Shown here: positions 3,394 to 18,076 of the stretch, in pieces
Position numbering within the stretch: position 1 is the first letter of the stretch
Layout: the number at the start of each line of letters is the position of its first letter
Origin: Myxococcota bacterium
GTDB lineage: Bacteria; Myxococcota_A; Polyangia; Polyangiales; Sandaracinaceae
Length of the DNA: 32,000 nucleotides
NCBI GenBank assembly: GCA_036149055.1
Contig: JAYZQJ010000191.1
Span: 11,716-43,715 of the forward strand
Direction of reading: 5' to 3'
Position numbers and translations under genes: made by a program
The notes under the pieces: model-generated
What the model saw: the letters and a program-made list of their open reading frames with translations, nothing else
Databases searched by the model: none
What the model was told of the DNA's origin: nothing

Positions 3394-3706
3394 GGCTCTC
3401 CTCACATCGACGGAGGGGTGAAGAACTTGACCTCCCGCCATCGGGACGTCCCCGCTCCCTCACATCGAGCCTTCGCCCCGCTGGGGCGCCACACAAGTCC
3501 ACTGGATCGGACGCGTCCGCGGCGTCGGGCTTTCCCTGGCACGTCGAGATCGTTTTCCATCGGGGTGCGTAGCCTTTTTCGCACTTTGAACTCTCACGTC
3601 GTCGCGTTGCGCGGAGCCCCCGTCTTCGGCTAGCGTCGCCGCCCAGTTCCGGGAGGGGTGAGGTGCGCGCACGCGCAGGCCCGCCCTTCTCCGAGGAGGC
3701 TTTCAC
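3394..3706. promoter_or_regulatory. Divergent intergenic/promoter region between the REC-EAL gene and the sterol operon
   Basis: This is the only long (313 bp) non-coding gap in the window. It contains the least GC-rich patch (3550-3600, cgttttccat...cctttttcgcactttgaac). A possible -35/-10 pair is TTGCGC (3607-3612)-N18-TAGCGT (3631-3636). Two direct repeats are present (see findings). SD GAGGAGG (3693-3699) sits 7 nt before GTG 3707. Confidence 0.4.
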
Positions 3707-6220
<2,514 letters not shown>

Positions 6221-6223
6221 GCC

Positions 6224-7345
6224 ATGGCCGAGACGTACGACGCCGAGGTGGCGATCATCGGCGCCGGCCCGGCCGGCACCGCCGCGGCCGCGCACCTCGC
6301 GAGCCTCGGGATCGACGACGTGGTCCTCGTCGACCGCCACGACTTCCCGCGCGACAAGACCTGCGGCAGCGGCATCTCCCCCAAGGGGATCAAGGTGCTC
6401 AAGGAGCTCGGCATCTGGGAGGAGGTCGAGCCCCACGCCTACTGGATCCGCGGCATCCGCATCGTCACGCCGGGCGGCCGCGACAGCTGGCAGTCGGCCG
6501 GCGACGTCGCCGAGGCCGTGGTCTGCCACCGCCGCACCCTCGATCACATCCTCTGGAAGAAGGCCGTCTCGGGCGGCGTGCGCTTCCTGCCCAACTTCGA
6601 CGCCGCCGAGGCGATCGAGGAGGGCGGGCGCATGGTCGGCTTCAAGGCCCGCGACGGCCGCGAGGTCCGCGCCCGCTACACCCTGATCGCCGGCGGCAGC
6701 CACTGCCGCGTCGGCCTGCCGGAGCTCCGGCCGCGCCGCACCATCCAGGCGATCATGGGCTGGTGGGACGACGCGGACTTCAAGCCGCACCACGTCGAGA
6801 TGATCTTCGACCGGATGATCGAGCCCTACTACGGCTGGCTCTTCCCGGAGTCGGAGACGCGGGTGAACATCGGCATCACCTACGAGGATCCGCCCGGCGA
6901 GAAGAAGCACGCGCGGAAGCTCTTCCAGCAGTTCCTCGACAAGTACTACGGCGAGCGCCTCGCCAACGCGACGCAGGTCGGCGGCTGGAAGGGCCACCCG
7001 GTGGTCTGGAGCTACAAGATCGACAGCCTCACCGCGCCCGGCCGCGTCGCGATCGGGGAGTCCGGGCTGATGACCCACCCGGCGACCGCCGAGGGCATCT
7101 ACCAGGGCATGCGCTCCGGCATGCTCGGCGCCGAGGCCGTTCACTCGATCCTCCGCCGCGGCGTGGCCGAGCAGGAGGCGGGCGCGATCTACGAGCGCGA
7201 GTGCAAGAAGGCGTTCCAGCTCTCCTTCTGGGGCGGCGGCGTCTTCCGCAAGATGGTGCGCACCGACGCGCTCGACTGGGCGGTCGCGATCGGCGAGCAG
7301 CCGATGGTGCAGTCGGTCACCGCGAAGCTGATGGCGGCCATGTGA
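6224..7345 (+). CDS. FAD-dependent oxidoreductase, geranylgeranyl reductase family
   Basis: The 373-aa product has VAIIGAGPAGTAAA (GxGxxG), RDKTCGSGISP (the GGR-type Cys motif RxKxCGG), YGWLFP, and IGESGLMTHPATAEGI (GDAAG-like). It starts 3 nt after the previous stop. Its stop TGA (7343-7345) shares 1 nt with the next ATG. Confidence 0.85.
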   Translation: MAETYDAEVAIIGAGPAGTAAAAHLASLGIDDVVLVDRHDFPRDKTCGSGISPKGIKVLKELGIWEEVEPHAYWIRGIRIVTPGGRDSWQSAGDVAEAVVCHRRTLDHILWKKAVSGGVRFLPNFDAAEAIEEGGRMVGFKARDGREVRARYTLIAGGSHCRVGLPELRPRRTIQAIMGWWDDADFKPHHVEMIFDRMIEPYYGWLFPESETRVNIGITYEDPPGEKKHARKLFQQFLDKYYGERLANATQVGGWKGHPVVWSYKIDSLTAPGRVAIGESGLMTHPATAEGIYQGMRSGMLGAEAVHSILRRGVAEQEAGAIYERECKKAFQLSFWGGGVFRKMVRTDALDWAVAIGEQPMVQSVTAKLMAAM

Positions 7346-10300
7346 TGACGCCGCGGTACGACGTCGGGATCGTCGGCGCGTCGGTCGCCGGGTGCACCAC
7401 CGCGCTGGCGTGCGCGAAGGCGGGGGCGCGCGTGCTCCTGCTCGAGGCCGACCCGAACGAGGCGGCCGCGCAGCACGTCGGAGCGTGGCTCCACCCGGAC
7501 GCGATGGACGCGCTCGAGGGCCTCGGCGTCGACCTCGTGCCCCCCGTGGGCTACCCGACCGGCAAGGGCTACGTGCTCTTCCCGGAGGACGGCACCGAGG
7601 CCGTGGTCCTGCCGTACTCGGTGGGCCGCTTCGGCTTCTCGCTCCCGCAGGGCCTCCTGGTCGAGACGCTGCGGCAGCACTGCGACGCCGACGAGGCGGT
7701 GACCCTCCGCTCGCCGGTCCGCGCGAGCCGCGTCGACGCGGGTACGCTCACCTGGCAGGAGCGCGGCCGCCCGCGCAGCGCCCGGGTCGAGCACGTCGTC
7801 TTCGCCGCCGGCGCGGACGTGCAGCCGATCAAGCGCGGCGCCGGCTACGTCTTCGGCGCGATCGAGCGGCCGCCGACGCACCGCATCGCCAGCCTCGATC
7901 TGGTGGGCGCGACGCTGCCCTTCGAGGGCTTCCGACACGTCTTCGTCGGCGGCTGCGGCGTCGCGATCGCGCACCGCGTCGGCCCGGCCACCGTGCGCCT
8001 GGCGCTCGACGTGCCGCTCGGCTTCCGCGTGCCCCGCGAGGGCGGCGTGCAGCTGCTCGAGGCCTACGCGCCGTCGCTGCCGGAGGAGCTCGCCCTGCCC
8101 TTCGCCGAGGCGCTGCGCCGCGGGGCGCCGTCCTGGTCGCACGGCCGCATCCAGCCGCGCGGCAACATGATCCGCGGGGGCATCGCGCGGGTCGGCGACG
8201 CCGCCGGCAGCCTGCACCCGCTCACCGCGGCCGGCCCGAGCCTCGCGATCGCCGACGGCGTCGCCTTCGCCGAGTCCCGCTCGCCGGCCTCGTTCGCGCG
8301 CAAGCGCCGCCGCGACACCCGCCTCCCCGAGGCGATCGCGATCGGGCTCGCCGAGGTGCTGACCGACGAGGCGCCGGAGAGCGTCGCCATCCGCCGCGCG
8401 ATGTACAACATGTGGCGCGACGATCCGGGCGAGCGGCTCCGCACGATGAGCTACATCGCCGGCGAGAACGAGGGGCTGCTGCGCTTCGGCGGCTCGTGTC
8501 TCCGGGTCATGCTCTCGAGCGCGGCCCGGGTGGCGAAGAGCGGCGCCCGCGGCGAGCTGCGCCACGCGCACCGGACCGGCTCGGCGCTGCTCGAGCGCAT
8601 CGGCTGGATGGTCGGCGGCGCGCTCGGCTGGAGCGATCTCCTGCCCGACGCCTTCGCGGAGAAGCTCGAGGCGCGCGGCACCACGCGCTACCTCGGCGCG
8701 CTGCACCACACCGGCGAGGCCGAGGTCGTCGGGCTGCCCGCCCGGAGCGGCGGCGCGTCGTCGATCCAGACCGCGCTCGCGCGCGGCGCCCAGGCGCTGG
8801 TGAACGAGCAGGCCGAGGACGGCTCCTTCGAGGGGGAGGTCGTCTGGTGCCCGATGCTCGCCGCGCAGTACGTGCTCGCCTCGCACGTGATGGACCGGCC
8901 GATCGATCCCGAGCGTCGGCGGCTGCTCCTGCGTCACTTCGAGGACACGTTGCTGCCCGGCGGCGCGTGGGGCCTGCACGAGAAGAGCGAGCCCTACCTC
9001 TTCGTCACCACGCTCGTGTACGTCGCGGCCCGGCTCCTCGGGGTCGACAAGGACGACGCGCTCATCCGCGAGGCGAAGGCGTTCATCCGTCAGGAGGGCG
9101 GCGCGGTCGGCATCCCGAGCTGGGGCAAGCTCTGGCTCGCGCTCGTCGATCTCTACGCCTGGGAGGGCGTCAACCCGGTGGTGCCCGAGCTCTGGGCGAC
9201 GCCGCGCTGGCTGCCGATGCACCCGAGCCGCTACTACTGCCACACCCGGCTCATCTACATGGGCATGGCCGCGCTCTACGGCGGGCGCGTGCGGCGCGAA
9301 GCGAACGCGACCATCCGCTGCGTGCGCGACGAGATCTTCCTCCAGCCGTACGGCGAGATCGACTTCGACGCCGCGCGCGAGACCCTCCGCGAGGGGGACG
9401 TGCACGACGCGCCGGGGCCGCTCCTGAAGCTGAGCTACCGGCTCCTCACCCGCTTCGAGCAGGCCAAGTCCGACGGCCTCCGGCAGAGGCTCCTCGGCGA
9501 GCTGCGCGACAAGATCCGCTACGAGCTCCGCTCGACGCACTACACCTGCATCTCGCCGGTCAGCGGCATGCTCGGCCTCCTCGCGCTCCACGCGAACGAC
9601 CCGTCGGATCCCGACCTCGTGAAGGGGCTCGAGGGCTTCGAGGGCTGGATCTGGGAGGACGAGCAGGAGGGCGCGCGCATCGCCGGCGCCCGGAGCGCGA
9701 CCTGGGACACCGCGTTCGCCGCCCAGGCGCTCGCGGCGGCCGCGGGTCACGTGGACGTCAGCGCGCCCCTCGAGCGCGCCGACGCCTTCCTCGCCAGCCA
9801 GCAGATCCGGCGCGGCACCGGCCTCGAGGGGCAGCACGACCGGCTCGACCCGACCGGCGGCTACTGCTTCGCCGGCGTCTGGCACGGCTGGCCGGTCAGC
9901 GACTGCACCGCCGAGGCGATGCTCGCGCGGCTCCACAACCCGGCCGCGAAGCCGAGCGCCCGCGCGATGGAGCAGGCGGCCGAGTTCGTGCTGCGCTGCC
10001 AGAACGCCGACGGCGGCTTCGGGAGCTACGAGGCGCGGCGGCACGCGCGGCTCTCGATCGACTGGCTCAACCCGAGCGAGATGTTCGGCGCGTGCATGAC
10101 CGAGCGCTCCTACGTCGAGTGCACCGCGTCGTGCGTGCAGGGCCTCGCCGCCTTCCGCGAGCGCTACCCGGACCGGCTCCGCGGGCGCGTCGACGCGGCG
10201 ATCGAGGCCGGCGTCGCCCGCCTCCGCGCCGAGCAGCGCGCCGACGGCTCCTTCGAGGGCATGTGGGGCGTCAACTTCATCTACGGGACGCTCTTCGGGG

Positions 10301-10740
10301 TCCGCGGGCTGCTGGCCGGCGGCGTGCCCTGCACCGACCCGCAGATCCGCCGCGCCTGCGCGTGGCTGCTCGAGCGCCAGCGCCCCGACGGCGGCTGGGG
10401 CGAGCACTTCGCGAGCGTGCTCGAGGGCCGCTACGTGGAGCACGAGGAGGCGCAGGTCGTGCAGACCGCGTGGGCGCTGACCTGCCTGCTCGAGGCCGAG
10501 GAGCCGGACTTCGCGGCGCTCGAGCGCGCGGCCCGGCTGCTCGCCCGGACCCAGCGGTCCGACGGAACGTGGCCGAAGCAGGATCCCGAGGGGATCTTCT
10601 TCCACACCGCGCTCCTCGAGTACCGCCTCTACCGCGCATACTTCCCGCCCTGGGCGCTCGGGCTCTTCGCGAGCCGCGCCGAGGCCAGGGCCGCCTGGAC
10701 CGAAGGGGGCCGCGCCGAGCGCCGCCCCGCCATCGTCTGA
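7345..10740 (+). CDS. Fusion protein: squalene monooxygenase (epoxidase)-like flavoprotein domain (aa 1-430) + oxidosqualene cyclase (aa 472-1131)
   Basis: This is the real part of track ORF 3658-10740, starting at ATG 7345 (GTG 7342 is an alternative). N-terminal domain motifs: YDVGIVGASVAGC, GAWLHPDA, RVGDAAGSLHPLTAAGPS (compare SQLE GE.LQPGG and GDA.NMRHPLTGGGMT). C-terminal domain motifs: the catalytic GWPVSDCTAEAM (Asp at 9901-9903), WDTAFAAQAL, and QW repeats (EQRADGSFEGMWGVNFIYGT, ERQRPDGGWGEHF, RTQRSDGTWPKQ). The C-terminus YRAYFPPWALG is close to eukaryotic lanosterol synthase. Confidence 0.93.
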   Translation: MTPRYDVGIVGASVAGCTTALACAKAGARVLLLEADPNEAAAQHVGAWLHPDAMDALEGLGVDLVPPVGYPTGKGYVLFPEDGTEAVVLPYSVGRFGFSLPQGLLVETLRQHCDADEAVTLRSPVRASRVDAGTLTWQERGRPRSARVEHVVFAAGADVQPIKRGAGYVFGAIERPPTHRIASLDLVGATLPFEGFRHVFVGGCGVAIAHRVGPATVRLALDVPLGFRVPREGGVQLLEAYAPSLPEELALPFAEALRRGAPSWSHGRIQPRGNMIRGGIARVGDAAGSLHPLTAAGPSLAIADGVAFAESRSPASFARKRRRDTRLPEAIAIGLAEVLTDEAPESVAIRRAMYNMWRDDPGERLRTMSYIAGENEGLLRFGGSCLRVMLSSAARVAKSGARGELRHAHRTGSALLERIGWMVGGALGWSDLLPDAFAEKLEARGTTRYLGALHHTGEAEVVGLPARSGGASSIQTALARGAQALVNEQAEDGSFEGEVVWCPMLAAQYVLASHVMDRPIDPERRRLLLRHFEDTLLPGGAWGLHEKSEPYLFVTTLVYVAARLLGVDKDDALIREAKAFIRQEGGAVGIPSWGKLWLALVDLYAWEGVNPVVPELWATPRWLPMHPSRYYCHTRLIYMGMAALYGGRVRREANATIRCVRDEIFLQPYGEIDFDAARETLREGDVHDAPGPLLKLSYRLLTRFEQAKSDGLRQRLLGELRDKIRYELRSTHYTCISPVSGMLGLLALHANDPSDPDLVKGLEGFEGWIWEDEQEGARIAGARSATWDTAFAAQALAAAAGHVDVSAPLERADAFLASQQIRRGTGLEGQHDRLDPTGGYCFAGVWHGWPVSDCTAEAMLARLHNPAAKPSARAMEQAAEFVLRCQNADGGFGSYEARRHARLSIDWLNPSEMFGACMTERSYVECTASCVQGLAAFRERYPDRLRGRVDAAIEAGVARLRAEQRADGSFEGMWGVNFIYGTLFGVRGLLAGGVPCTDPQIRRACAWLLERQRPDGGWGEHFASVLEGRYVEHEEAQVVQTAWALTCLLEAEEPDFAALERAARLLARTQRSDGTWPKQDPEGIFFHTALLEYRLYRAYFPPWALGLFASRAEARAAWTEGGRAERRPAIV

Positions 10741-10773
10741 GAATTCTGTCGTCGAGCCGTACCGATGCAGTCC

Positions 10774-10779
10774 AAGGAG
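10774..10779 (+). promoter_or_regulatory. Shine-Dalgarno (AAGGAG) for the SQMO-repeat-SQS gene
   Basis: AAGGAG lies 5 nt upstream of ATG 10785, in the 44-nt gap after the OSC stop codon (10738-10740). Confidence 0.6.
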
Positions 10780-10784
10780 CAGTC

Positions 10785-13700
10785 ATGAACCGCAGCAGCT
10801 ACGACGTCGTCGTCGTCGGAGCCGGGCCCGCCGGGTGCGGCGCCGCGCTCGCTCACGCCCGCCGGGGCGCCTCCGTGCTCGTGGTCGAGGCCGACCCTCG
10901 CGCCGCGAAGCGCTTCGCCGGCGAGTGGCTCCACCCCACCGGCGTCGCCGTGCTCGACGCGCTCCGGGTCGGCCGCCTCGAGCAGGCGAGGGCCCGCGCG
11001 GGCTACGGCTTCGTCATCTTCCCCGACGACGGCAGCGAGCCGATCGAGATGGCCTACACCGAGGGCGTCGCGCTGAGCGCCGAGCACCACGCGATCGTCG
11101 AGGCGATGCGCGACGCGCTCCGGGCCGAGGACCGGGTGGAGCTGCTCATCGGAGGCCGCGCGGTGCGGGTCGCCGACGGCGTCATCCGGATCGAGGACAA
11201 GAAGAGCGGCCGCGCGACCGACGTGCGCGCCGGACGGATCATCGGCGCCGACGGCCGCAAGTCGACGGTGCGCGAGAGCCTCGGCGTCCCGACCCAGAAG
11301 AGCGCGCCGCTGAGCTACATGGCCTCGGTCGAGCTGCGCGACGTGGAGCTGCCCTTCGAGGGCTTCGGTCACCTCGTCCTCGGCGGACCCGGCCCGGCGC
11401 TCTTCTACCGCATCGGCGACGGGCTCATCCGCGGCTGCCTCGACGTGCCGATCGCGCTCGGCCCGAACGCGCGCTCGCTCGAGGCGCTCTGGGACGGCTT
11501 CGGCCCGGTGATGCCGGAGTCGATGCGCCCCGCGCTCCGCGCCGCCCTCGAGCGCGGCCCGAGCGGCTGGGCGATCAACCAGTTCCGCCCCCGCGCGCTC
11601 TTCGGCGCCGGCGACGTGCGGCTGGTCGGCGACGCGGTCGGCCACGTGCACCCGATGACGGCCACCGGCATGACGCTCGGCCTGCTCGACGCCAAGGCCC
11701 TCGCCGAGAGCGACAGCCTGGAGTCCTACGCCAAGGCGCGCCGGAGCTACGTGCCGGAGCTGCTGTCGAACGCGCTCTACCACTGCTTCCGCCGTGACGA
11801 CCCGAGCGCGACCGCGATCCGCCGCGCGATGTTCGAGACGCTCCGCAAGGAGCCCCGCGAGCGCCGCCGCACGATGGACATCCTCGCCGGCACCGATCAG
11901 AGCCGGCGCAGCTTCGGCTCGGCCTTCCTCCGCATCGCCGCCCGCGCGGTCGGCGGCTCCCTCGAGAGCGAGCGCCCGCTGTCGCGCCTCATGAGCTTCG
12001 GCGAGTGGATGCAGTGGCCCGCCGCGCTGGTGGTGCCGAGCGGCCTCGACGCGAGCGTGCGCGCCCAGAGCAGCACGACGCACCCGATCCCGCAGCTGGC
12101 CAAGCTCACGCCGACCGCGGCCCCCGTGGCCCCGCCCGAGACGCCCGGCGGGAAGGCGCCGGCGCTCGACGTGCCGCTCACCCCGGCCCTCGAGCGCGGC
12201 ACCGCGGCGCTCCTCCGGGAGCTCGAGCGGCTCGCGATGCAGTTCGGCGAGGTGCCCGACGCGACCCTGGCCGGCCCGGCGCTCTCCTGCATCCGCGCGA
12301 TCACCGCGACCCGGATGCGCCTCGGCATGGCCGCGCGCATGACGCTCGGGCGTCGCCGCCTCGCCACCGAGGGCTTCCCCCGCCTCCTCGACGCCGAGCC
12401 GCACGCGCGGCACCTGGCGGAGCTCTGCCTGGTGCTCCTCGACGGCGCGCCGTGGGACGAGCAGCCGATCGCGAGCCTCGACGAGGGCGTGCGCGCGCTG
12501 CTCGACTGCCAGACCGAGAGCGGCGGCTTCGCGCGCTCCCGGGGCGTCGCCTCCTCGCCCGGCGCGGCCGGAGAGCTCGAGCTGACCGCGCTCGCGTGTC
12601 GGGCGCTCGAGGTGGTCGCGCGCAAGGGCAAGAGCGACGCCGACCTCGGCCGCGCGCTCGAGCGGGCCGCCGACTGGGTCGTCTCGCTGCAGGGCGACGA
12701 CGGCGACTTCGGCGGCGACGTCTCGCGCACCGCCTGGGCGATCGAGGCCCTCATCGCGGCCGGCGTGCACCCCGGCGATCCGGCGGCGCGTCGCGCGGTC
12801 CGCTGGCTCTCGGTGGCGCTCGACCCGAGCGGCGATCCGGTCGAGGCGGCGCGCGCCGTCCGGGCGCTCCTCGCCGCCGGCGTCTCCTCCAACGAGGCGA
12901 TCGTCTCCGCGGCCCGCGGCCTCGCGTCGCTCGAGGAGACCGACTGGCGCGTGGCGCGCGAGGTGGTCGAGGCGCTCGCCGCCTGTGAGGTCCGCCGGGC
13001 CGAGCGGCCGCAGAAGCGCGCCCGTCGCCGCAAGCGCGGCAGCGACAAGTCGCCGATCGGGCCCGAGCTGAAGGCGGACTGGAAGTTCTGCCGCCAGGCG
13101 CTCGGCGAGGTCTCGCGCACCTTCGCGCGGCCGATCGAGATGCTCCCGCCGAAGCTCGAGGTCGCCGTCTCGCTCGGCTACCTCCTCTGCCGCATCGCCG
13201 ACACCGTCGAGGACCACGTCGCGGTGCCCTTCGAGGTGAAGGACGATCTGTTCGCGAAGCTCTGCGCGGTGCTCGAGCACGGCGCGGATCCGGCGCCCTT
13301 CGCCGAGGCGTTCACCCACATCGAGGGCGACGACGCGGAGCTGTCCCTGGCCCGCGAGCTGCCGCGCGTGATGCGGGTCTACGACGCGCAGGACGAGGCG
13401 ACGAAGAAGGCGTGCACGCGCTGGGTCACCGAGATGGCCCGCGGCATGAGCCTCTACACGCACCGCAAGCCCGAGGCCGACGGCGTCGCGGCGCTGCACA
13501 CGATCCCGGACCTCGAGCGCTACTGCTACTACGTGGCGGGCACGGTCGGGCACCTCCTGACCGACCTCTTCGTCGACGCGATCGGCGAGGACCCCGAGGG
13601 CGCGCTCGCGATCGCGATGCGGGACCACGCGGAGGGCTTCGCGACCGGCCTGCAGCTCACGAACATCCTGAAGGACGTGACCGACGACCTCGCGCGCGGG

Positions 13701-14105
13701 GTCTCGTTCATCCCGCGCACCGAGTGCGCGCGGCAGGGCTTCTCGGTCGCCGATCTCGCCGACCCGAAGGTGCGCGACCGGGCCCACGCCGCCGTCTCGC
13801 CGGTCTTCGACATCGCCAAGGAGCGGCTCGACGCGGCGCTCGAGTACTCGCTGCTCATCCCGTCCGAGCACCGCCAGATCCGGCTCTTCTGCCTGCTGCC
13901 GCTCTGGATGGCCGGCCGCACCCTGGCGCTCGGCCGCGGCAACGACGCGATGTTCGAGCCCGACCTGCCGGTCAAGATCACCCGGAGCGAGGTCGAGTCG
14001 CTGATCGCCGAGTGCATGACGCTCGCCGAGGACGACGACGCGCTGCGCGCTCGCTACGCGCGCCTGTTCGAGCCGGCCCAGGGCCAGCGGCGGGAGATGC
14101 GATGA
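10785..14105 (+). CDS. Three-domain fusion: squalene monooxygenase (aa 1-420) + terpene-cyclase/prenyltransferase-type alpha-helical repeat domain (aa 465-735) + squalene synthase (farnesyl-diphosphate farnesyltransferase, aa 760-1106)
   Basis: This is the real part of track ORF 7392-14105, starting at ATG 10785 with an SD. SQMO motifs: VVVVGAGPAGC, GEWLHPTG, GADGRKSTVRE, LVGDAVGHVHPMTATGMT. Middle-domain repeats: LLDCQTESGGF and WVVSLQGDDGDFGG. SQS motifs: VSRTFARPI, YLLCRIADTVED (first Asp-rich), YCYYVAGTVGHLL, GLQLTNILKDVTDDLARGVSFIP (second Asp-rich). Confidence 0.92.
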   Translation: MNRSSYDVVVVGAGPAGCGAALAHARRGASVLVVEADPRAAKRFAGEWLHPTGVAVLDALRVGRLEQARARAGYGFVIFPDDGSEPIEMAYTEGVALSAEHHAIVEAMRDALRAEDRVELLIGGRAVRVADGVIRIEDKKSGRATDVRAGRIIGADGRKSTVRESLGVPTQKSAPLSYMASVELRDVELPFEGFGHLVLGGPGPALFYRIGDGLIRGCLDVPIALGPNARSLEALWDGFGPVMPESMRPALRAALERGPSGWAINQFRPRALFGAGDVRLVGDAVGHVHPMTATGMTLGLLDAKALAESDSLESYAKARRSYVPELLSNALYHCFRRDDPSATAIRRAMFETLRKEPRERRRTMDILAGTDQSRRSFGSAFLRIAARAVGGSLESERPLSRLMSFGEWMQWPAALVVPSGLDASVRAQSSTTHPIPQLAKLTPTAAPVAPPETPGGKAPALDVPLTPALERGTAALLRELERLAMQFGEVPDATLAGPALSCIRAITATRMRLGMAARMTLGRRRLATEGFPRLLDAEPHARHLAELCLVLLDGAPWDEQPIASLDEGVRALLDCQTESGGFARSRGVASSPGAAGELELTALACRALEVVARKGKSDADLGRALERAADWVVSLQGDDGDFGGDVSRTAWAIEALIAAGVHPGDPAARRAVRWLSVALDPSGDPVEAARAVRALLAAGVSSNEAIVSAARGLASLEETDWRVAREVVEALAACEVRRAERPQKRARRRKRGSDKSPIGPELKADWKFCRQALGEVSRTFARPIEMLPPKLEVAVSLGYLLCRIADTVEDHVAVPFEVKDDLFAKLCAVLEHGADPAPFAEAFTHIEGDDAELSLARELPRVMRVYDAQDEATKKACTRWVTEMARGMSLYTHRKPEADGVAALHTIPDLERYCYYVAGTVGHLLTDLFVDAIGEDPEGALAIAMRDHAEGFATGLQLTNILKDVTDDLARGVSFIPRTECARQGFSVADLADPKVRDRAHAAVSPVFDIAKERLDAALEYSLLIPSEHRQIRLFCLLPLWMAGRTLALGRGNDAMFEPDLPVKITRSEVESLIAECMTLAEDDDALRARYARLFEPAQGQRREMR

Positions 14106-14809
14106 TGGGCTTCGAGCTTCCGATGATGGACAACCTCTGGTTCCACGTCGCGATCGGCATCACGCTCTTCGTCGACGCGGTCCTCCTGGTGTTCCTCAGC
14201 TGGGCCTACCGCTCGCCGCGCTTCGCGAAGTACCACATTCGCAAGCCGATGGAGATGCGGGTCAGCAAGTCGAATTACCGCTGGACGGTGGGCGTCATCG
14301 GCCTGCTGTCGAGCAGCTCGACGGTGGTGCTCATCTACGGGCTCGCCCCGCTGACCATCAGCGAGACGACGACCACGCCCTGGTGGCTCATCGCGCTGCA
14401 GTTCTTCGGCGTGCTCTTCGTCTACGACTTCGCCTACTACTTCATGCATCGGACGATGCATCACCGGAAGCTCATGCCGCTGGTGCACGAGATCCATCAC
14501 CGCGTCCGCGTGCCGAGCGCGCTCGAGAGCCTCTACCTCTCGCCGGTCGAGATGCTCGCGGGCCTGCTGCTGCTGATGGCGGTGACGTGGGCGCTCGGCC
14601 CGGTGCACTGGATCGCCTTCGTGGCGGTCTTCTTCCTCTACTCGACGCTGCACATCGTCATCCACTCGGGGATGACCTTCCCGCACCCGGTCTTCCGCGT
14701 GATGAACCACCTCACGATGAAGCACCACAAGCACCACCTGAACAAGCACGGTCACAACTTCGCGTCCGTGACCCCGCTGCCGGACATCGTGTTCGGCACC
14801 TCTGTCTGA
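14102..14809 (+). CDS. Fatty acid hydroxylase superfamily membrane di-iron enzyme (sterol desaturase / C-4 methyl oxidase family, ERG3/ERG25-like)
   Basis: The 235-aa product has about 4 TM segments. His boxes are HRTMHH, HEIHHR and HHKHHLNKHGH. Its ATG overlaps the previous stop (ATGA at 14102-14105). Confidence 0.88.
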   Translation: MMGFELPMMDNLWFHVAIGITLFVDAVLLVFLSWAYRSPRFAKYHIRKPMEMRVSKSNYRWTVGVIGLLSSSSTVVLIYGLAPLTISETTTTPWWLIALQFFGVLFVYDFAYYFMHRTMHHRKLMPLVHEIHHRVRVPSALESLYLSPVEMLAGLLLLMAVTWALGPVHWIAFVAVFFLYSTLHIVIHSGMTFPHPVFRVMNHLTMKHHKHHLNKHGHNFASVTPLPDIVFGTSV

Positions 14810-14816
14810 GGCAGTC

Positions 14817-16487
14817 ATGTTCCTTCGCAGACCCGAAGTCCCGGAAGGGCTCAAGCCCGCGCCGGAGCTGTCCGGCGGGCTCCCGCTCGTCGGTCACACC
14901 GTCGAGTTCGTGCGCGACACGATCGGCATGCTCGAGCGCGCCCACCACGAGCTCGGCGAGGTCGCCGCGGTGCGCGTCGCCGGCCGCCGCATGGTCGCCC
15001 TCTTCGGCCCCGAGGCCCACGAGGCGGTCTTCCGCGCGAAGGACCAGGTCCTCGACCCGCGCGAGGCCTACAAGATCATGACCCCCGTCTTCGGCGAGGG
15101 CATGGTCTACGACGCCTCGCCCGAGAAGATGAACGAGCAGTTCAAGATGCTGCTCCCGGCGCTCAAGGACCGCCGCATGCGCACCTACGGGGAGACCATC
15201 CTCGACGAGGTCGAGCGCAGCGTCGCGGACTGGGGGGACGAGGGCGAGATCGACATCGTCGACTACTGCCGCGTCCTGACGAACTTCACCTCCTCGCGCT
15301 GCCTCATCGGCGAGGAGTTCCGCGAGCGCATGACCGACGAGTTCGCGCGCATCTACCACGACCTCGAGCGCGGCGTGACGCCCCTCGCCTACATCGACGC
15401 GAACCTCCCGATCCCGAGCTTCAAGAAGCGGGACGCGGCCCGGGTCCGGCTCGTGAAGCTGATCGGCGCGATCATCGACGAGCGCGCCCGGACCGGCCGG
15501 ACCGGTGAGGACTTCCTCCAGACCCTGATGGAGGCCCGCTACCAGGACGGCGCGGCGCTCACCCACGACGAGATCACCGGGATGCTGCTCGCGGCGATGT
15601 TCGCCGGGCACCACACCAGCTCGGTCACCACCGCGTGGGCCCTCATCGAGCTCTGCAAGAACCCCGCGTACATGCGGCGCGTGGTCGCGGAGCTCGACGA
15701 GACCTACGGCGAGAGCGGCCAGACCGACTACCAGTCGCTCCGCAACATCCCGGTCACCGAGCACGCGGTGAAGGAGACCCTGCGGCTCTACCCGCCGCTC
15801 TTCCTGCTCATCCGGGTGGTGCAGAAGGACTGGACCTTCAAGGGGCACCACCTGCCGAAGGGCACCTGGATCCTCGTGTCACCGACCGTCTCGCAGCGCG
15901 ACCGCGAGGTCTTCACCCACCCTTACACCTTCGACCCCGACCGCTTCGCCGAGCCGCGCAACGAGGGCAAGAAGGACTGGGCGTTCATCGCCTTCGGCGG
16001 CGGCCGCCACAAGTGCCTGGGCAACGCGTTCGCGCTCCTCCAGGTCAAGGCGATCCTCGGCACGCTCCTGCGGCGCTACGAGTTCGAGCTGGTCGACCCG
16101 AAGGTGAAGCCGGACTTCCACGGCCTCGTCATCGGCCCCTCCGAGCCCTGCCGGCTGCGCTACCGCCGCCGCGAGGAGAAGGTCGCCGCCCGCCCGGCCC
16201 CGAAGGTCGAGGAGGCGCCGAAGCCGGCGCCGAAGAAGAAGGAGGAGCGAGTCCAGCTCCGGATCGCGCTCGACCTCGATCTCTGCCAGGGCCACGCGGT
16301 CTGCGTGAACGAGGCGCCGGGCGTCTTCTACGTCTCGGACGAGACCGGCAAGGTCGCCCTCCACACCGATCGCCCCGACCCGAGCCAGAACGACGCCGTG
16401 CGCGCCGCGGCCGACTACTGCCCGCAGCGCGTCATCCAGGTCCACGAAGAAGACGAAGCGCCCCTCACCTGCCCCGTGGCGCACTGA
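14817..16487 (+). CDS. cyp51: Sterol 14alpha-demethylase (CYP51) fused to a C-terminal 3Fe-4S-type ferredoxin domain
   Basis: CYP51 signatures present: YKIMTPVFGEGMVYDA (B' helix), MFAGHHTSS (helix I), ETLRLYPP, and heme loop FGGGRHKCLGNAF (Cys codon 16014-16016). It is very similar by eye to M. tuberculosis CYP51. A Lys/Pro/Ala linker (16164-16250) precedes the ferredoxin domain (16251-16484), which carries CQGHAVC...CP (CxxHxxC...CP). Confidence 0.95.
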   Translation: MFLRRPEVPEGLKPAPELSGGLPLVGHTVEFVRDTIGMLERAHHELGEVAAVRVAGRRMVALFGPEAHEAVFRAKDQVLDPREAYKIMTPVFGEGMVYDASPEKMNEQFKMLLPALKDRRMRTYGETILDEVERSVADWGDEGEIDIVDYCRVLTNFTSSRCLIGEEFRERMTDEFARIYHDLERGVTPLAYIDANLPIPSFKKRDAARVRLVKLIGAIIDERARTGRTGEDFLQTLMEARYQDGAALTHDEITGMLLAAMFAGHHTSSVTTAWALIELCKNPAYMRRVVAELDETYGESGQTDYQSLRNIPVTEHAVKETLRLYPPLFLLIRVVQKDWTFKGHHLPKGTWILVSPTVSQRDREVFTHPYTFDPDRFAEPRNEGKKDWAFIAFGGGRHKCLGNAFALLQVKAILGTLLRRYEFELVDPKVKPDFHGLVIGPSEPCRLRYRRREEKVAARPAPKVEEAPKPAPKKKEERVQLRIALDLDLCQGHAVCVNEAPGVFYVSDETGKVALHTDRPDPSQNDAVRAAADYCPQRVIQVHEEDEAPLTCPVAH

Positions 16488-16501: not shown

Positions 16502-18076
16502 ATGCAGAACGTCGCCATCGAGCTCGAGAGCACCCCCGAGGTCATCGACTGCCGCGAGCCGGCCACCCACGCGCCCCTCGGCAAGGTGCCGGTGGACGGG
16601 CCGGACGTGGTCCGCGCCAAGGTCGCGCGGGCGCGCGTCGCGCAGAAGAGCTGGGGGGAGAGCACCTTCTCGGAGCGCCGCCGCCTCCTCAAGACCATCC
16701 TCGCCCACGTGCTCGACCACGCGGACGAGCTCTGCGAGGTCGTGGTCCGCGACGCCGGCAAGACCCGCGAGAACGCGGTGATGGGCGAGATCTGGCCGGT
16801 CTGCGAGAAGCTCCGCTGGACGATCGCGAACGGCGAGAAGCACCTCCGCCCCGAGCGCATGTCGAGCGGCCTGTTCCTGCACAAGAAGGCCACCGTCCTC
16901 TACCAGCCGCTCGGCGTCATCGGCGTGATCTGCCCGTGGAACTACCCGCTGCAGAACGTGCTCGGGCCGACCATCCCGGCGCTCTTCGCGGGCAACGCGG
17001 TGGTGGTGAAGGTCTCCGAGCAGGTCGCGTGGTCGTCGGCGCGCATGCAGCGCATCTTCGACGAGGCGTTCGACGCGCTCGGCTACCCGAAGGACACCGT
17101 GCAGATCGTCAACGGCTACGGCGAGACCGGCGCCGCGCTGGTCCGCTCGGGCGTCGACAAGGTGATCTTCACCGGCTCGGTCCCGAACGGCCGGAGGATC
17201 ATCGAGGGCAGCGTCGAGAACATCACGCCCGTCATCCTCGAGCTCGGCGGCAAGGACGCGTTCATCGTCTGCGAGGACGCCCACATGGAGCAGGCGGTGC
17301 ACGCCGCGCTCACCGGCGTGTTCATCGCGGCCGGCCAGAACTGCATGGCCGCCGAGCGCGTGCTCGTGCACGCGAAGGTCTACGACGACTTCGTCGGCCG
17401 CCTCGTGAGCGAGGTGAAGAAGCTCCGCGTGGGCGACGCGCCGCAGGGCGCGGTCGACGTGGGCGCGCTCGTCTCGCCGCAGCAGGTCGAGATCGTCGAG
17501 CGGCTCGTGAACGACGCGGTCGAGAGCGGCGCGCGGGTCCTCGTCGGCGGCAAGCGCGGCGATCGCCCGGGCCAGTTCTTCGAGCCCACCGTGCTCGTCG
17601 ACGTCACCCCGGACATGGCGATCATGAACGAGGAGGTCTTCGGCCCGGTGATGTGCGTGCACCGCTACGAGACCGACGACGAGGCGATCGAGATCGCCAA
17701 CGGCACCCGCTTCGGCCTCGGCTCCACCGTGATGAGCCGCTCGGGCACGCGCGCCCGCCGCCTCGCCGAGCGCCTCCGCGTCGGCTCCTGCACCATCAAC
17801 GACTTCGGCTTCACCTACATGGCGCAGGACCTGCCCTTCGGCGGCGTGGACGCCAGCGGCTTCGGTCGGCTCAACGGCCGCGAGGGCCTGCGAGGCTGCA
17901 CCAACCAGAAGGCCATCCTCGAGGATCGGCTGCCGCTGCACATGCCGGCCAAGCTCTACCCGGTGAAGCCCGAGGTCTACCCGCTCGTGCGCGGGGTGCT
18001 CCGGACGCTCTACCAGCCGACCCTGACCGGCCGCGCCAAGGCGGTGGTCGAGCTCGCCAAGAACCTCCGCCGATGA
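16502..18076 (+). CDS. Aldehyde dehydrogenase family protein
   Basis: This is the real part of track ORF 15635-18076, starting at ATG 16502. ALDH motifs present: CPWNYP, FTGS, ELGGKD (catalytic Glu), GQNCMAAER (catalytic Cys), EEVFGPV. It has a C-terminal extension of about 50 aa. Confidence 0.9.
   Translation: MQNVAIELESTPEVIDCREPATHAPLGKVPVDGPDVVRAKVARARVAQKSWGESTFSERRRLLKTILAHVLDHADELCEVVVRDAGKTRENAVMGEIWPVCEKLRWTIANGEKHLRPERMSSGLFLHKKATVLYQPLGVIGVICPWNYPLQNVLGPTIPALFAGNAVVVKVSEQVAWSSARMQRIFDEAFDALGYPKDTVQIVNGYGETGAALVRSGVDKVIFTGSVPNGRRIIEGSVENITPVILELGGKDAFIVCEDAHMEQAVHAALTGVFIAAGQNCMAAERVLVHAKVYDDFVGRLVSEVKKLRVGDAPQGAVDVGALVSPQQVEIVERLVNDAVESGARVLVGGKRGDRPGQFFEPTVLVDVTPDMAIMNEEVFGPVMCVHRYETDDEAIEIANGTRFGLGSTVMSRSGTRARRLAERLRVGSCTINDFGFTYMAQDLPFGGVDASGFGRLNGREGLRGCTNQKAILEDRLPLHMPAKLYPVKPEVYPLVRGVLRTLYQPTLTGRAKAVVELAKNLRR

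What the first reader, a model, noticed from the sequence alone, without database searches (positions are those of the whole stretch)
7345..12045. Two paralogous epoxidase modules: one canonical, one with degraded cofactor motifs (possible pseudo-enzyme or docking domain)
The two SQMO-like domains are collinear, including a shared C-terminal extension (R.RTM(S/D)(Y/I)(I/L)AG.....(F)G(G/S)). This indicates a duplication. The copy fused to SQS keeps all canonical motifs: GAGPAG (10818-10835), GEWLHP, the DG motif GADGRKS (Asp at 11250-11252), and GDAVGHVHPMTATGMT. The copy fused to OSC has GASVAG (7375-7392, second Gly replaced by Ser) and GAWLHP (Glu replaced by Ala). Its DG motif is replaced by AAGADVQ (7795-7824), and it has LTAAGPS instead of MTATGMT. 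One hypothesis is that the OSC-linked module has lost or altered monooxygenase activity. It might act as a dimerisation or membrane-docking partner of the active module, assembling an SQS-SQMO-OSC metabolon. Alternatively it may perform a different oxidation, such as a second epoxidation to 2,3;22,23-dioxidosqualene.
Basis: inference. Interest (0 to 1): 0.8.

Follow-up and report, generated by a model that had tools for sequence, protein, structure and literature searches.

The report
Degenerate squalene-epoxidase module fused to cyclase
In a myxobacterial cholesterol gene cluster, the squalene-epoxidase-like domain fused to the sterol cyclase has lost many residues conserved from bacteria to humans, while a second, fully intact epoxidase sits in the next gene; it is most likely a kept-but-disabled enzyme domain, a pattern shared by a whole bacterial family.

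Summary
ORF A (7345-10740) is an SE-like module fused to an oxidosqualene cyclase. ORF B (10785-14105) is a squalene epoxidase, a middle domain and a squalene synthase.

- **Conservation.** At 46 positions conserved in bacterial SEs and identical in human SQLE, module B keeps 46 and module A keeps 29.
- **Family-wide pattern.** All 120 SQS-fused SEs examined keep every cofactor motif. OSC-fused SEs range from near-canonical to strongly degenerate.
- **Link to a partner.** The 21 degenerate modules with a known SE-SQS partner keep 26-39 positions. Five without a partner within 10 kb keep 40-45.
- **Still under selection.** Module A evolves about 1.5-2x faster than its neighbouring domains. It remains under purifying selection and is predicted to pack rigidly on the cyclase (pTM 0.92).
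- **Corrections.** Loss of the DG Asp alone is not diagnostic, because many otherwise canonical fusions lack it. The C-terminal extension is common to all bacterial SEs. The duplication is old.
- **New finding.** ORF B's middle domain is a remnant of a cyclase C-terminal half without the catalytic DCTAE motif (hhalign 99.7%). The two proteins therefore carry reciprocal degenerate domains.

Best reading: an impaired or dead SE domain retained structurally. This is untested biochemically.

The parts
7345..10740 (+). ORF A (1131 aa): SE-like module + linker + oxidosqualene cyclase. Identical to NCBI MAG protein P0032, annotated 'FAD-dependent oxidoreductase [Myxococcota bacterium]'.
   Evidence: Translation; Pfam and NCBIfam hits; exact match on record; AF2 model with pLDDT 91.6 and pTM 0.92.
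7345..8679 (+). SE-like module of ORF A (aa 1-445). It has the squalene-epoxidase fold but retains only 29 of 46 universally conserved SE positions.
   Evidence: Foldseek gives TM 0.80 to human SQLE 6c6n.
7375..7392 (+). GASVAG: Rossmann GxGxxG motif with the second Gly replaced by Ser (human G132). Nine of 22 clade members carry Ser.
7480..7497 (+). GAWLHP (canonical GEWLHP; E is human E165). The E->A change occurs only in this protein and its 88%-identical relative P0033. The upstream conserved Arg (human R161) is Gln43.
7804..7824 (+). AAGADVQ in place of the DG motif ADGRxS. Asp->Ala (human D285), the Gly is kept, and a 3-4 residue insertion follows.
7873..7893 (+). PTHRIAS: a clade-specific conserved motif. 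His179 replaces the universally conserved Ser (human S304) in 21 of 22 clade members. It is the only conserved 'switch' found.
7966..7983 (+). IAHRVG: His210 replaces the Tyr (human Y335) that bridges a water to flavin N5. This position varies in the clade (Y17/H4/Q1).
   Evidence: PMC6327030.
8194..8241 (+). The GD motif is retained (GDAAGSLHPLT), followed by AAGPS instead of AxGMT. The Gly equivalent to human G420 is Asp or Asn in 9 of 22 clade members.
8680..8739 (+). Flexible linker (aa 446-465) between the SE-like module and the OSC. It is the only internal low-confidence segment in the model.
8776..10674 (+). Oxidosqualene cyclase domain (aa 478-1110). The catalytic SDCTAEA motif is intact at 9898-9918.
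   Evidence: TIGR03463 at 2.3e-214; Foldseek TM 0.85 to human OSC 1w6j.
10785..14105 (+). ORF B (1106 aa): canonical squalene epoxidase + cyclase-derived middle domain + squalene synthase. The RBS AAGGAG lies at 10774-10779.
10785..11984 (+). Canonical SE module of ORF B (aa 1-400). It keeps 46 of 46 universal positions: GAGPAG 10818-10835, GEWLHP 10920-10937, GADGRKS 11244-11264, GD...MTATGMT 11628-11675.
12042..13028 (+). Middle domain of ORF B (aa ~420-748). It is homologous to the C-terminal alpha/alpha-toroid half of the OSC. The catalytic DCTAE motif is absent (the aligned stretch is ARHLAELC, 12405-12428).
   Evidence: hhalign probability 99.7%, E=2e-26, 312 columns. Weak Pfam SQHop_cyclase and NCBIfam OSC hits. 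AF2 model pLDDT 89.8, with top PDB folds SHC and OSC.
13107..13985 (+). Squalene synthase domain of ORF B (PF00494, aa 775-1067). Asp-rich motifs are DTVED (within 13188-13214) and DVTDD (within 13662-13688).
6224..7345 (+). Upstream GGR-family flavoprotein, a likely bacterial sterol C-24 reductase (Bsr). Its stop codon overlaps the ATG of ORF A (TGATG).
   Evidence: Pfam. 74% identity to the GGR homologue in the S. amylolyticus sterol cluster. Bsr was characterised in PMC12004948. Overlap shown.

Best explanation
The window carries a Sandaracinaceae-type cholesterol biosynthesis operon built around two giant fusion proteins.

**ORF B** (SE, cyclase remnant, SQS) makes squalene and epoxidises it with a fully canonical FAD-dependent squalene epoxidase.

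**ORF A** (SE-like module, OSC) cyclises the oxidosqualene. Its N-terminal module descends from an active SE that was already fused to the cyclase in the ancestor. Once a second intact SE was present, selection on its flavin and active-site residues relaxed. It is now catalytically impaired or dead. It is kept because it is an integral, rigidly packed part of the cyclase protein. Its likely role is as a membrane-associated scaffold or substrate-entry module, and possibly as a contact surface for ORF B. It may still hold FAD or its ADP part as a structural ligand.

**Shown:** paralogy, motif loss, the family-wide pattern, faster evolution under purifying selection, and the predicted rigid two-domain unit.

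**Inferred:** loss of epoxidase activity, and the structural, channelling or docking role.
For: 1. **Conserved positions.** Module A keeps 29 of 46 positions that are at least 95% conserved in bacterial SEs and identical in human SQLE. Module B keeps 46 of 46. The lost positions include the second GxGxxG Gly (G132), R161, E165, D285 (DG), H226, S289, S304, L333, Y335 (water bridge to flavin N5; PMC6327030), Y474 and F477.
2. **The pattern is systematic.** All 120 SQS-fused SE modules keep GxG, R161, E165, an acidic DG residue, Y335 and GD. OSC-fused modules of the window's clade (n=22) score 26-35.
3. **Variable replacements.** In that clade the flavin-proximal sites vary rather than settling on a new residue: Y335 is Y17/H4/Q1, G420 is G13/D8/N1, D408 is D18/E3/A1. 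Twenty sites conserved in both reference groups are relaxed, and there is only one conserved switch, S304->H.
4. **Link to redundancy.** The 21 SE-OSC proteins with an SE-SQS partner on the same contig or cluster score 26-39. Five with no second SE within 10 kb score 40-45. In two of those five, SQS is fused to HMGR instead.
5. **Faster evolution, still constrained.** Between the same genome pairs the SE-like module is 53-65% identical, against 70-79% for SE-B and 72-79% for OSC. Its dN is 1.5-2x higher. Omega is 0.41-0.67 against 0.19-0.46, so it remains below 1.
6. **Predicted rigid unit.** The AF2 model of full-length ORF A has pLDDT 91.6 and pTM 0.92, with only the 20-residue linker disordered. 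The SE-like part superposes on human SQLE at TM 0.80.
7. **Reciprocal degeneration.** ORF B's middle domain is a cyclase C-terminal half that lacks DCTAE. This fits complementary loss after duplication of an SE-cyclase ancestor.
Against: - No biochemical data exist.
- Several nucleotide-binding features remain strictly conserved in the clade: the first and last Gly of GxGxxG, the beta2 Glu (E153, 22 of 22), G164, the GD Gly, H414-P415 and D427. FAD may therefore still bind, and a divergent catalyst is possible.
- Loss of the DG Asp is tolerated in otherwise canonical SE-OSC fusions that appear to be the only SE of their cluster, and it co-varies with R292->H.
- Human SQLE itself matches only 45 of 77 positions conserved among bacteria. 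Divergence alone does not prove inactivity.
- The association with a partner SE probably reflects one or a few evolutionary events, not 21 independent ones.
- 'No partner' was checked only within 10 kb.
- The omega values are inflated by GC3-compressed dS.
- The pTM signal comes from an alignment that includes active fusions.
Confidence: 0.55

Rival explanations
1. Module A is still an active FAD monooxygenase with a remodelled active site. It is either a redundant or weaker squalene epoxidase feeding the fused cyclase directly, or an enzyme with a changed substrate. Candidates for the changed substrate include a second epoxidation to 2,3;22,23-dioxidosqualene or oxidation of a sterol intermediate.
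For: - The module is under purifying selection (omega below 1, 53-65% identity across the clade).
- The ADP-binding core and GD motif are retained in most members.
- A clade-specific conserved His sits at the S304 position, within the PTHR[IL]A motif.
- DG-Asp loss is evidently compatible with function in near-canonical fusions.
- The SE fold is predicted with high confidence.
Against: - The residues closest to the flavin and substrate vary among orthologues instead of being fixed to a new state. Examples are Y335 to H/Q, G420 to D/N and D408 to E/A. A conserved new chemistry would not be expected to show this.
- Only one conserved switch was found.
- Sterols reported for S. amylolyticus, which has the same two-fusion layout, are lanosterol, zymosterol, cholesterol and cholesterol intermediates. 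The papers read mention no epoxysterols.
Confidence: 0.27
2. Module A is a dedicated docking partner that heterodimerises with the active SE, or with the cyclase remnant, of ORF B. This would assemble an SQS-SE-OSC metabolon. It is the reader's metabolon idea in its strong form, where the interaction between paralogues is the reason the module is retained.
For: - The two proteins are adjacent in one operon and co-occur in every related locus examined.
- They carry reciprocal degenerate domains: an impaired SE next to an active OSC, and an active SE next to a dead cyclase half. This is the pattern expected if a self-associating ancestor duplicated and the copies became mutually dependent.
Against: - Nothing here tests an interaction between the two proteins.
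- The SE dimer seen in human SQLE crystals was judged an artefact by its authors (PMC6327030).
- The rigid intramolecular packing on the OSC already gives a sufficient reason for retention.
- SE-remnant-SQS proteins also exist with unfused OSCs, for example in Cystobacter fuscus. ORF B-type proteins therefore do not need an SE-like partner.
Confidence: 0.13
3. Module A has become a flavin-handling helper, for example a reductase or flavin carrier that supplies reduced FAD to the active SE. The model would be paired styrene-monooxygenase paralogues.
For: The electron donor of bacterial SEs is not identified in the papers read. The ADP-binding core is retained. SQLE is described as a class E-type two-component epoxidase that depends on an external reductase (PMC6327030).
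Against: The DG motif, which in this superfamily is associated with NAD(P)H and FAD handling (general knowledge, not tested here), is the motif that is lost. No reductase domain or motif is gained.
Confidence: 0.05

Closest known systems
Squalene epoxidase / squalene monooxygenase (human SQLE, PDB 6C6N; Pfam PF08491; bacterial SE such as M. capsulatus MCA2872)
   Same: Both window modules have SQLE as their closest solved relative and share its fold, including the C-terminal helical region. Module B keeps every universally conserved position examined.
   Different: Module A lacks 17 of 46 universal positions, among them G132, R161, E165, D285, S304, L333 and Y335. It scores only 24 bits on PF08491. 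It is fused to a cyclase rather than standing alone.
Near-canonical SE-OSC fusion proteins of Myxococcota, Acidobacteriota and others (about 1130 aa; e.g. P0078, P0128, P0113, P0143)
   Same: They have the same two-domain architecture, length and linker, and sit in the same type of sterol cluster, often next to a Bsr-like gene.
   Different: Their SE modules keep 40-45 of 46 universal positions and no second SE lies within 10 kb. The window's module keeps 29 and sits beside an intact SE.
Sandaracinus amylolyticus sterol gene cluster (a cholesterol producer; Bsr was characterised from it, PMC12004948)
   Same: It has the same gene set and order: HMGR-epimerase fusion, GGR/Bsr, SE-OSC, SE-remnant-SQS, CYP51-ferredoxin. 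Its SE-OSC (P0055) also lacks the DG Asp.
   Different: The S. amylolyticus module is less degenerate and keeps GAG, R161, E165 and Y335. An ERG24 gene lies between the two fusions there.
Pseudoenzyme paralogues retained beside an active copy (general concept, e.g. pseudokinases)
   Same: An intact fold under purifying selection has lost otherwise invariant catalytic or cofactor residues, and an active paralogue is present.
   Different: Inactivity is not demonstrated here. The domain is covalently fused to the next enzyme of the pathway, and its partner protein carries the reciprocal dead domain.
Class II triterpene cyclases (SHC/OSC; PDB 3SQC, 1W6J; single-domain 'SHC' of Cystobacter fuscus, 8PAK)
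   Same: ORF B's middle domain aligns to the C-terminal half of the OSC and is predicted to form an alpha/alpha toroid. These cyclases are its best structural matches.
   Different: It has only about 330 residues (one toroid), no DCTAE or DxDD acid motif, low TM scores (0.47-0.51), and lies between an SE and an SQS domain.

Membership tests
Squalene epoxidase (FAD-dependent, PF08491 / EC 1.14.14.17): module B (ORF B aa 1-400) | Significant match to the SE family model and to SQLE over the full length | tested here: met
   PF08491 at 68 bits (cut-off 20.1), covering aa 153-399. 6c6n at E=1.4e-22, covering aa 5-350.
Squalene epoxidase: module B | Cofactor and catalytic motifs: GxGxxG, beta2 Glu, R161/E165 (RxxGE), DG, Y335, GD...HP.T..G | tested here: met
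   All are present; 46 of 46 universal positions are kept.
Squalene epoxidase: module B | Squalene 2,3-epoxidase activity | not testable with these tools
   Inferred only from sequence and from the sterol-cluster context.
Squalene epoxidase: module A (ORF A aa 1-445) | Homology to and fold of the SE family | tested here: met
   PF08491 at 24.1 bits (cut-off 20.1), partial. 35% identity to module B, E=1e-59. Foldseek TM 0.80 to 6c6n.
Squalene epoxidase: module A | Cofactor and catalytic motifs: GxGxxG, R161/E165, DG, Y335, GD...G(M)T | tested here: not met
   The motifs read GASVAG, Q..GA, AAG and His at the Y335 position. GD is kept but followed by AAGPS. Only 29 of 46 universal positions are retained.
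Squalene epoxidase: module A | FAD binding and epoxidase activity | not testable with these tools
   This needs purified protein. The beta2 Glu and the outer GxGxxG glycines are conserved, so FAD binding cannot be excluded.
2,3-Oxidosqualene cyclase (TIGR03463): ORF A aa 478-1110 | Full-length match to the OSC model, two alpha/alpha toroids, and the catalytic DCTAE Asp | tested here: met
   TIGR03463 at E=2.3e-214 and 713 bits. This is below NCBI's strict 851-bit cut-off, but the general cyclase model TIGR01787 passes (461 vs 322.7). SDCTAEA is present. TM 0.85 to human OSC.
Class II triterpene cyclase: ORF B middle domain | Homology to the cyclase toroid domain | tested here: met
   hhalign probability 99.7%, E=2e-26 to the OSC C-terminal half. 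Best folds are SHC and OSC.
Class II triterpene cyclase: ORF B middle domain | Catalytic acid motif (DCTAE/DxDD) and two-domain architecture | tested here: not met
   The aligned stretch reads ARHLAELC, only one toroid is present, and Pfam scores fall below the gathering cut-offs.
Squalene synthase (PF00494): ORF B aa 775-1067 | Family match and the two Asp-rich motifs | tested here: met
   PF00494 at 1.8e-42. DTVED and DVTDD are present. TIGR01559 scores 119.8 bits, below its equivalog cut-off of 286.75.
Pseudoenzyme (catalytically dead paralogue retained under selection) | Loss of otherwise invariant catalytic or cofactor residues, together with purifying selection and an active paralogue | tested here: met
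Pseudoenzyme | Demonstrated absence of catalytic activity | not testable with these tools

The most novel reading that the evidence does not exclude
An ancestral SE-cyclase fusion duplicated in Myxococcota and the two copies degenerated reciprocally. One copy kept the cyclase and let its epoxidase decay (ORF A type). The other kept the epoxidase, reduced its cyclase to a single dead toroid and acquired squalene synthase (ORF B type). The two dead domains now serve as the mutual docking surfaces of an obligate hetero-complex that channels farnesyl diphosphate to squalene, oxidosqualene and lanosterol. That would be a bacterial sterol metabolon held together by pseudo-domains.
Probability: 0.15. 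Interest if true: 0.85.

Novelty: new variant of a known kind. Interest (0 to 1): 0.62.

Why it matters
Bacterial sterol synthesis in Myxococcota is under active study because of its proposed link to the origin of eukaryotic sterols. In comparative genomics, 'SE' and 'OSC' are usually scored as present or absent.

This analysis shows that many myxobacterial OSCs carry an SE module whose catalytic competence ranges from probably intact to probably lost. It also shows that the protein scored as 'SE' in several species is a three-part fusion containing a dead cyclase remnant.

- **Gene-content inference.** Counting an SE domain as an active epoxidase may be wrong for Sandaracinaceae-type clusters.
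- **Motif interpretation.** The DG motif is not a reliable marker of activity in this family.
- **A natural series.** These proteins offer graded steps for studying how a fused enzyme domain becomes a pseudo-domain.
- **A testable question.** Do the first three oxygen-related steps of sterol synthesis run in a physical complex in bacteria?

I found no description of any of this in the literature I could search. That search covered open-access papers only.

Tried and rejected
1. **Artefact or decaying pseudogene: rejected.** The protein is identical in an NCBI MAG and in an independent Logan assembly. Its 88%-identical relative P0033 shares GAS, GAW and the His at the Y335 position. The ORF is intact, and omega is below 1.
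2. **Recent tandem duplication: rejected.** The A and B modules each group with orthologues from other genomes and are not sisters in an NJ tree. This tree is distance-based and only indicative.
3. **DG-motif loss as proof of inactivity: rejected.** Only 24 of 119 SE-OSC fusions keep an acidic residue there, and many of the rest are otherwise canonical. D285 co-varies with R292 (D-R in 23 cases, S/A/G-H in 32), which suggests a compensated structural pair.
4. **My first 77-site 'bacterial conservation' score: replaced.** Human SQLE scores only 45 of 77 on it, so it overstates degeneracy. I replaced it with the 46-site universal score.
5. **Plain BLASTP of ORF B's middle domain against the OSC.** It gave only a marginal hit (E=0.003, 38 aa). 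Profile-profile comparison was needed.
6. **Mapping substitutions onto coordinates.** Model coordinates are not exposed to the scripting tool, so distances to FAD or to the interface could not be computed.
7. **Literature searches.** Searches for SE-OSC or SE-SQS fusions, or for degenerate SE paralogues in myxobacteria, found no description.
8. **dN/dS.** Absolute values are unreliable because about 97% GC3 compresses dS. Only the between-domain comparison is used.
9. **Representative-library search.** It returned 203 proteins at E<=1e-30. I did not mine it further because the two full-length searches already gave the family picture.

Full report
**What is in the window.** The window is about 73% G+C. 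I called genes from third-position GC and checked them against an identical public contig. The region around the finding is a sterol operon on the + strand:

| Coordinates | Product |
|---|---|
| 3707-6220 | HMG-CoA reductase fused to an NAD-epimerase/3-beta-HSD-like domain |
| 6224-7345 | GGR-family flavoprotein |
| 7345-10740 | ORF A, 1131 aa |
| 10785-14105 | ORF B, 1106 aa |
| 14102-14809 | Fatty-acid-hydroxylase-family protein |
| 14817-16487 | P450-ferredoxin fusion |
| 16502-18076 | Aldehyde dehydrogenase |
| 18073-19677 | GMC oxidoreductase |

The GGR-family protein is 74% identical to the GGR homologue at the same position in the Sandaracinus amylolyticus sterol cluster. A GGR homologue from that cluster has been shown to be a sterol C-24 reductase, Bsr, and S. 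amylolyticus makes cholesterol (PMC12004948). The closest relatives of ORF A and ORF B are all from Sandaracinaceae or Polyangia MAGs.

**Checking the observation.**
- ORF A is an SE-like module (aa 1-445), a roughly 20-residue flexible linker and an oxidosqualene cyclase. TIGR03463 matches at E=2.3e-214 and the catalytic SDCTAEA motif is intact.
- ORF B is a squalene epoxidase, a roughly 330-residue middle domain and a squalene synthase.
- The two SE modules align collinearly at 35% identity over 386 residues, E=1e-59.
- Against the PDB, module B aligns end to end with human SQLE (1.4e-22). Module A aligns only in two fragments (1.6e-9), and the DG region drops out.
- In a multiple alignment that includes human SQLE, the substituted residues fall on human G132, E165, D285 and the segment after the GD motif.

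The 'shared C-terminal extension' (ER.RTM...F) is present in every bacterial SE examined, so it says nothing specific about this pair. In a neighbour-joining tree each module groups with its orthologues from other genomes rather than with the other module, so the duplication is old.

**How degenerate is module A?** I defined 46 'universal' positions. These are at least 95% conserved in 139 reference bacterial SEs (120 SQS-fused and 19 stand-alone) and identical in human SQLE, plus the DG Asp.

| Group | Universal positions kept (of 46) |
|---|---|
| Module B (this window) | 46 |
| Module A (this window) | 29 |
| Stand-alone SEs | 41-46 |
| SQS-fused SEs | 43-46 |

- G132 to S
- R161 to Q
- E165 to A
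- H226 to Q
- D285 to A
- S289 to V
- S304 to H
- L326 to V
- P329 to C
- P331 to V
- L333 to I
- Y335 to H
- L405 to R
- L469 to I
- Y474 to A
- F477 to L
- D481 to A

In the human structure Y335 holds the water that contacts flavin N5. L326 and F477 line the substrate and inhibitor pocket (PMC6327030).

An earlier 77-site score based only on bacterial conservation was misleading, because human SQLE itself scores only 45 of 77 on it. I do not rely on it.

**The pattern is family-wide.** Full-length searches show that both architectures are common. There are at least 119 clusters of roughly 1130-aa SE-OSC fusions and at least 120 clusters of SE-middle-SQS fusions. S. amylolyticus has both, and Cystobacter fuscus has the SQS type.

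All 120 SQS-fused SE modules keep GxG, R161, E165, an acidic DG residue, Y335 and GD. The OSC-fused modules form a graded series:

| Group of OSC-fused modules | n | Universal positions kept |
|---|---|---|
| Near-canonical | 65 | 40-45 |
| Intermediate, including S. amylolyticus | about 32 | 34-40 |
| The window's clade | 22 | 26-35 |

Within the window's clade the flavin-proximal positions do not settle on a new residue. They vary between orthologues: Y335 is Y17/H4/Q1, G420 is G13/D8/N1, D408 is D18/E3/A1, and R161 is kept in 9 of 22. Twenty sites conserved in both reference groups are relaxed. Only one site shows a conserved switch, S304 to His, inside a clade-specific PTHR[IL]A motif.

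The window's protein and its 88%-identical relative are among the most degenerate members. E165A occurs only in these two, and His at the Y335 position occurs in four of the 22 clade members, these two included.

**Degeneracy tracks redundancy.**
- Partner present. In every related locus of the window's clade that I could read, the SE-like-OSC gene sits next to or near an SE-middle-SQS gene. The same holds for S. amylolyticus and for P0107. These 21 partner-bearing modules score 26-39.
- No partner nearby. Five SE-OSC proteins with no second SE within 10 kb score 40-45. In two of them SQS is fused to HMG-CoA reductase instead.
- Phylogenetic spread. On an OSC-domain tree the degenerate, partner-bearing proteins occupy one contiguous part of the tree. 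The association probably reflects one or a few events, followed by lineage-specific decay. It is not 21 independent trials.

**The DG motif is not the key.** Only 24 of 119 OSC-fused modules keep an acidic residue at the DG position. Among the 65 near-canonical ones, Asp pairs with Arg at the R292 position in 23 cases, while Ser, Ala or Gly pairs with His in 32. This looks like a compensated structural pair. Such modules are the only SE seen in their sterol clusters, so Asp loss is evidently tolerated.

**Selection and structure.** Across the same genome pairs:

| Domain | Pairwise identity |
|---|---|
| SE-like module (ORF A) | 53-65% |
| SE-B | 70-79% |
| OSC | 72-79% |
| SQS | 66-80% |

The SE-like module's dN is 1.5-2 times higher than that of the other domains. 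Omega is 0.41-0.67 against 0.19-0.46. Absolute omega is inflated by GC3-compressed dS, so I use only the between-domain comparison. The module is therefore relaxed but clearly not neutral.

An AlphaFold2 model of full-length ORF A, built from 114 aligned homologues, has mean pLDDT 91.6 and pTM 0.92. Only residues 446-465 are disordered. For a 1131-residue two-domain protein, such a pTM implies a confidently fixed orientation between the domains. The cyclase part superposes on human OSC (TM 0.85) and the SE-like part on human SQLE (TM 0.80).

**An unexpected second degenerate domain.** A profile of ORF B's middle domain (aa ~420-748) aligns to the C-terminal half of the OSC of ORF A (aa ~721-1121). 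The hhalign probability is 99.7% and E=2e-26 over 312 columns, running to the very C-terminus. The catalytic SDCTAEA stretch aligns to ARHLAELC.

Supporting evidence:
- weak Pfam cyclase hits;
- a best NCBIfam hit to oxidosqualene cyclase at 1.4e-5;
- a confident alpha/alpha-toroid model whose best PDB matches are SHC, human OSC and a 347-residue C. fuscus cyclase.

ORF B thus looks like an SE-cyclase fusion that lost the N-terminal cyclase half and the catalytic acid, and gained SQS. ORF A and ORF B carry reciprocal degenerate domains. This suggests, but does not prove, an ancient duplication of an SE-cyclase fusion followed by complementary degeneration.

**Most likely mechanism.** ORF B makes and epoxidises squalene, and ORF A cyclises the product. 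Module A descends from a once-active fused epoxidase. It is now impaired or dead, and is retained because it is structurally integrated with the cyclase. It may contribute to membrane association or substrate entry, and it may still hold FAD as a structural ligand. I put this at about 0.55.

The rivals are:
- a still-active, remodelled monooxygenase, possibly with a different substrate (about 0.27);
- retention specifically as a docking surface for ORF B, the strong metabolon model (about 0.13);
- a flavin-supplying helper (about 0.05).

The conserved ADP-binding core (E153 in 22 of 22, the outer GxGxxG glycines, the GD Gly) is the main reason not to be more confident about loss of function.

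**Novelty.** The papers I could search treat these genes simply as 'SE' and 'OSC'. They include surveys of bacterial sterol genes, the S. amylolyticus cluster paper, and triterpene cyclase and steroid-evolution studies. None mentions the fusions, the degenerate SE module or the cyclase remnant. The search covers open-access literature only. I rate this a new variant of a known kind: known enzyme families and the known pseudoenzyme concept, in a previously undescribed, conserved arrangement.

Noticed in passing
window 12042-13028 (ORF B aa ~420-748): The domain between the SE and SQS domains of ORF B is a remnant of the C-terminal alpha/alpha-toroid half of an oxidosqualene cyclase that lacks the DCTAE catalytic motif. 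It is conserved in at least 120 SE-x-SQS fusion clusters, including those of S. amylolyticus and Cystobacter fuscus.
   Followed up: yes
window 6224-7345: This GGR-family flavoprotein is 74% identical to the GGR homologue in the S. amylolyticus sterol cluster, so it is probably the bacterial sterol C-24 reductase Bsr. Its TGA stop overlaps the ATG of ORF A (TGATG), which suggests translational coupling.
   Followed up: partly
window 3707-6220: HMG-CoA reductase is fused to an NAD-dependent epimerase/3-beta-HSD-like domain (837 aa). The same fusion occurs in S. amylolyticus (L011) and in L014. Other lineages instead fuse HMGR to SQS (L012) or to polyprenyl synthase plus SQS (L009).
   Followed up: partly
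window 14817-16487: A cytochrome P450 is fused to a C-terminal 4Fe-4S ferredoxin domain (556 aa). The architecture recalls the CYP51-ferredoxin fusion described for Methylococcus capsulatus (PMC7947880 abstract). I did not check CYP51 identity.
   Followed up: no
window 14102-14809, 16502-18076, 18073-19677: Downstream operon genes encode a fatty-acid-hydroxylase-family protein (its start overlaps the ORF B stop, ATGA), an aldehyde dehydrogenase and a GMC oxidoreductase. These may be sterol-modifying steps. Their roles were not examined.
   Followed up: no
L003:3927-3929 (GCA_046128665.1 contig JBJSWG010002243.1): In this orthologue an in-frame stop codon sits exactly in the linker between the SE-like module and the OSC (...GWMVGGSIG*TEALPRGW...). 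The two parts are therefore called as separate genes. This could be a real split of the fusion or a sequencing error.
   Followed up: partly
L002 (GCA_027493475.1, JAOSKS010000013.1): The orthologous cluster in this MAG is broken by many frameshifts: SE-like, OSC and SE-B are each split over two or three frames. This is probably assembly error rather than pseudogenisation. Its SE-x-SQS gene call also shows an ERG2/Sigma1R Pfam hit at its C-terminal end.
   Followed up: no
P0072-P0113-type SE-OSC fusions: In otherwise canonical OSC-fused SE modules, the DG-motif Asp and the Arg seven residues downstream (human D285/R292) change together. Asp pairs with Arg in 23 cases, and Ser, Ala or Gly pairs with His in 32. 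This suggests a compensated structural pair.
   Followed up: partly
window 2155-3441 (-) and 19696-21387 (+): A response-regulator-EAL protein and a hybrid histidine kinase/response regulator flank the sterol operon. I did not examine whether they regulate it.
   Followed up: no
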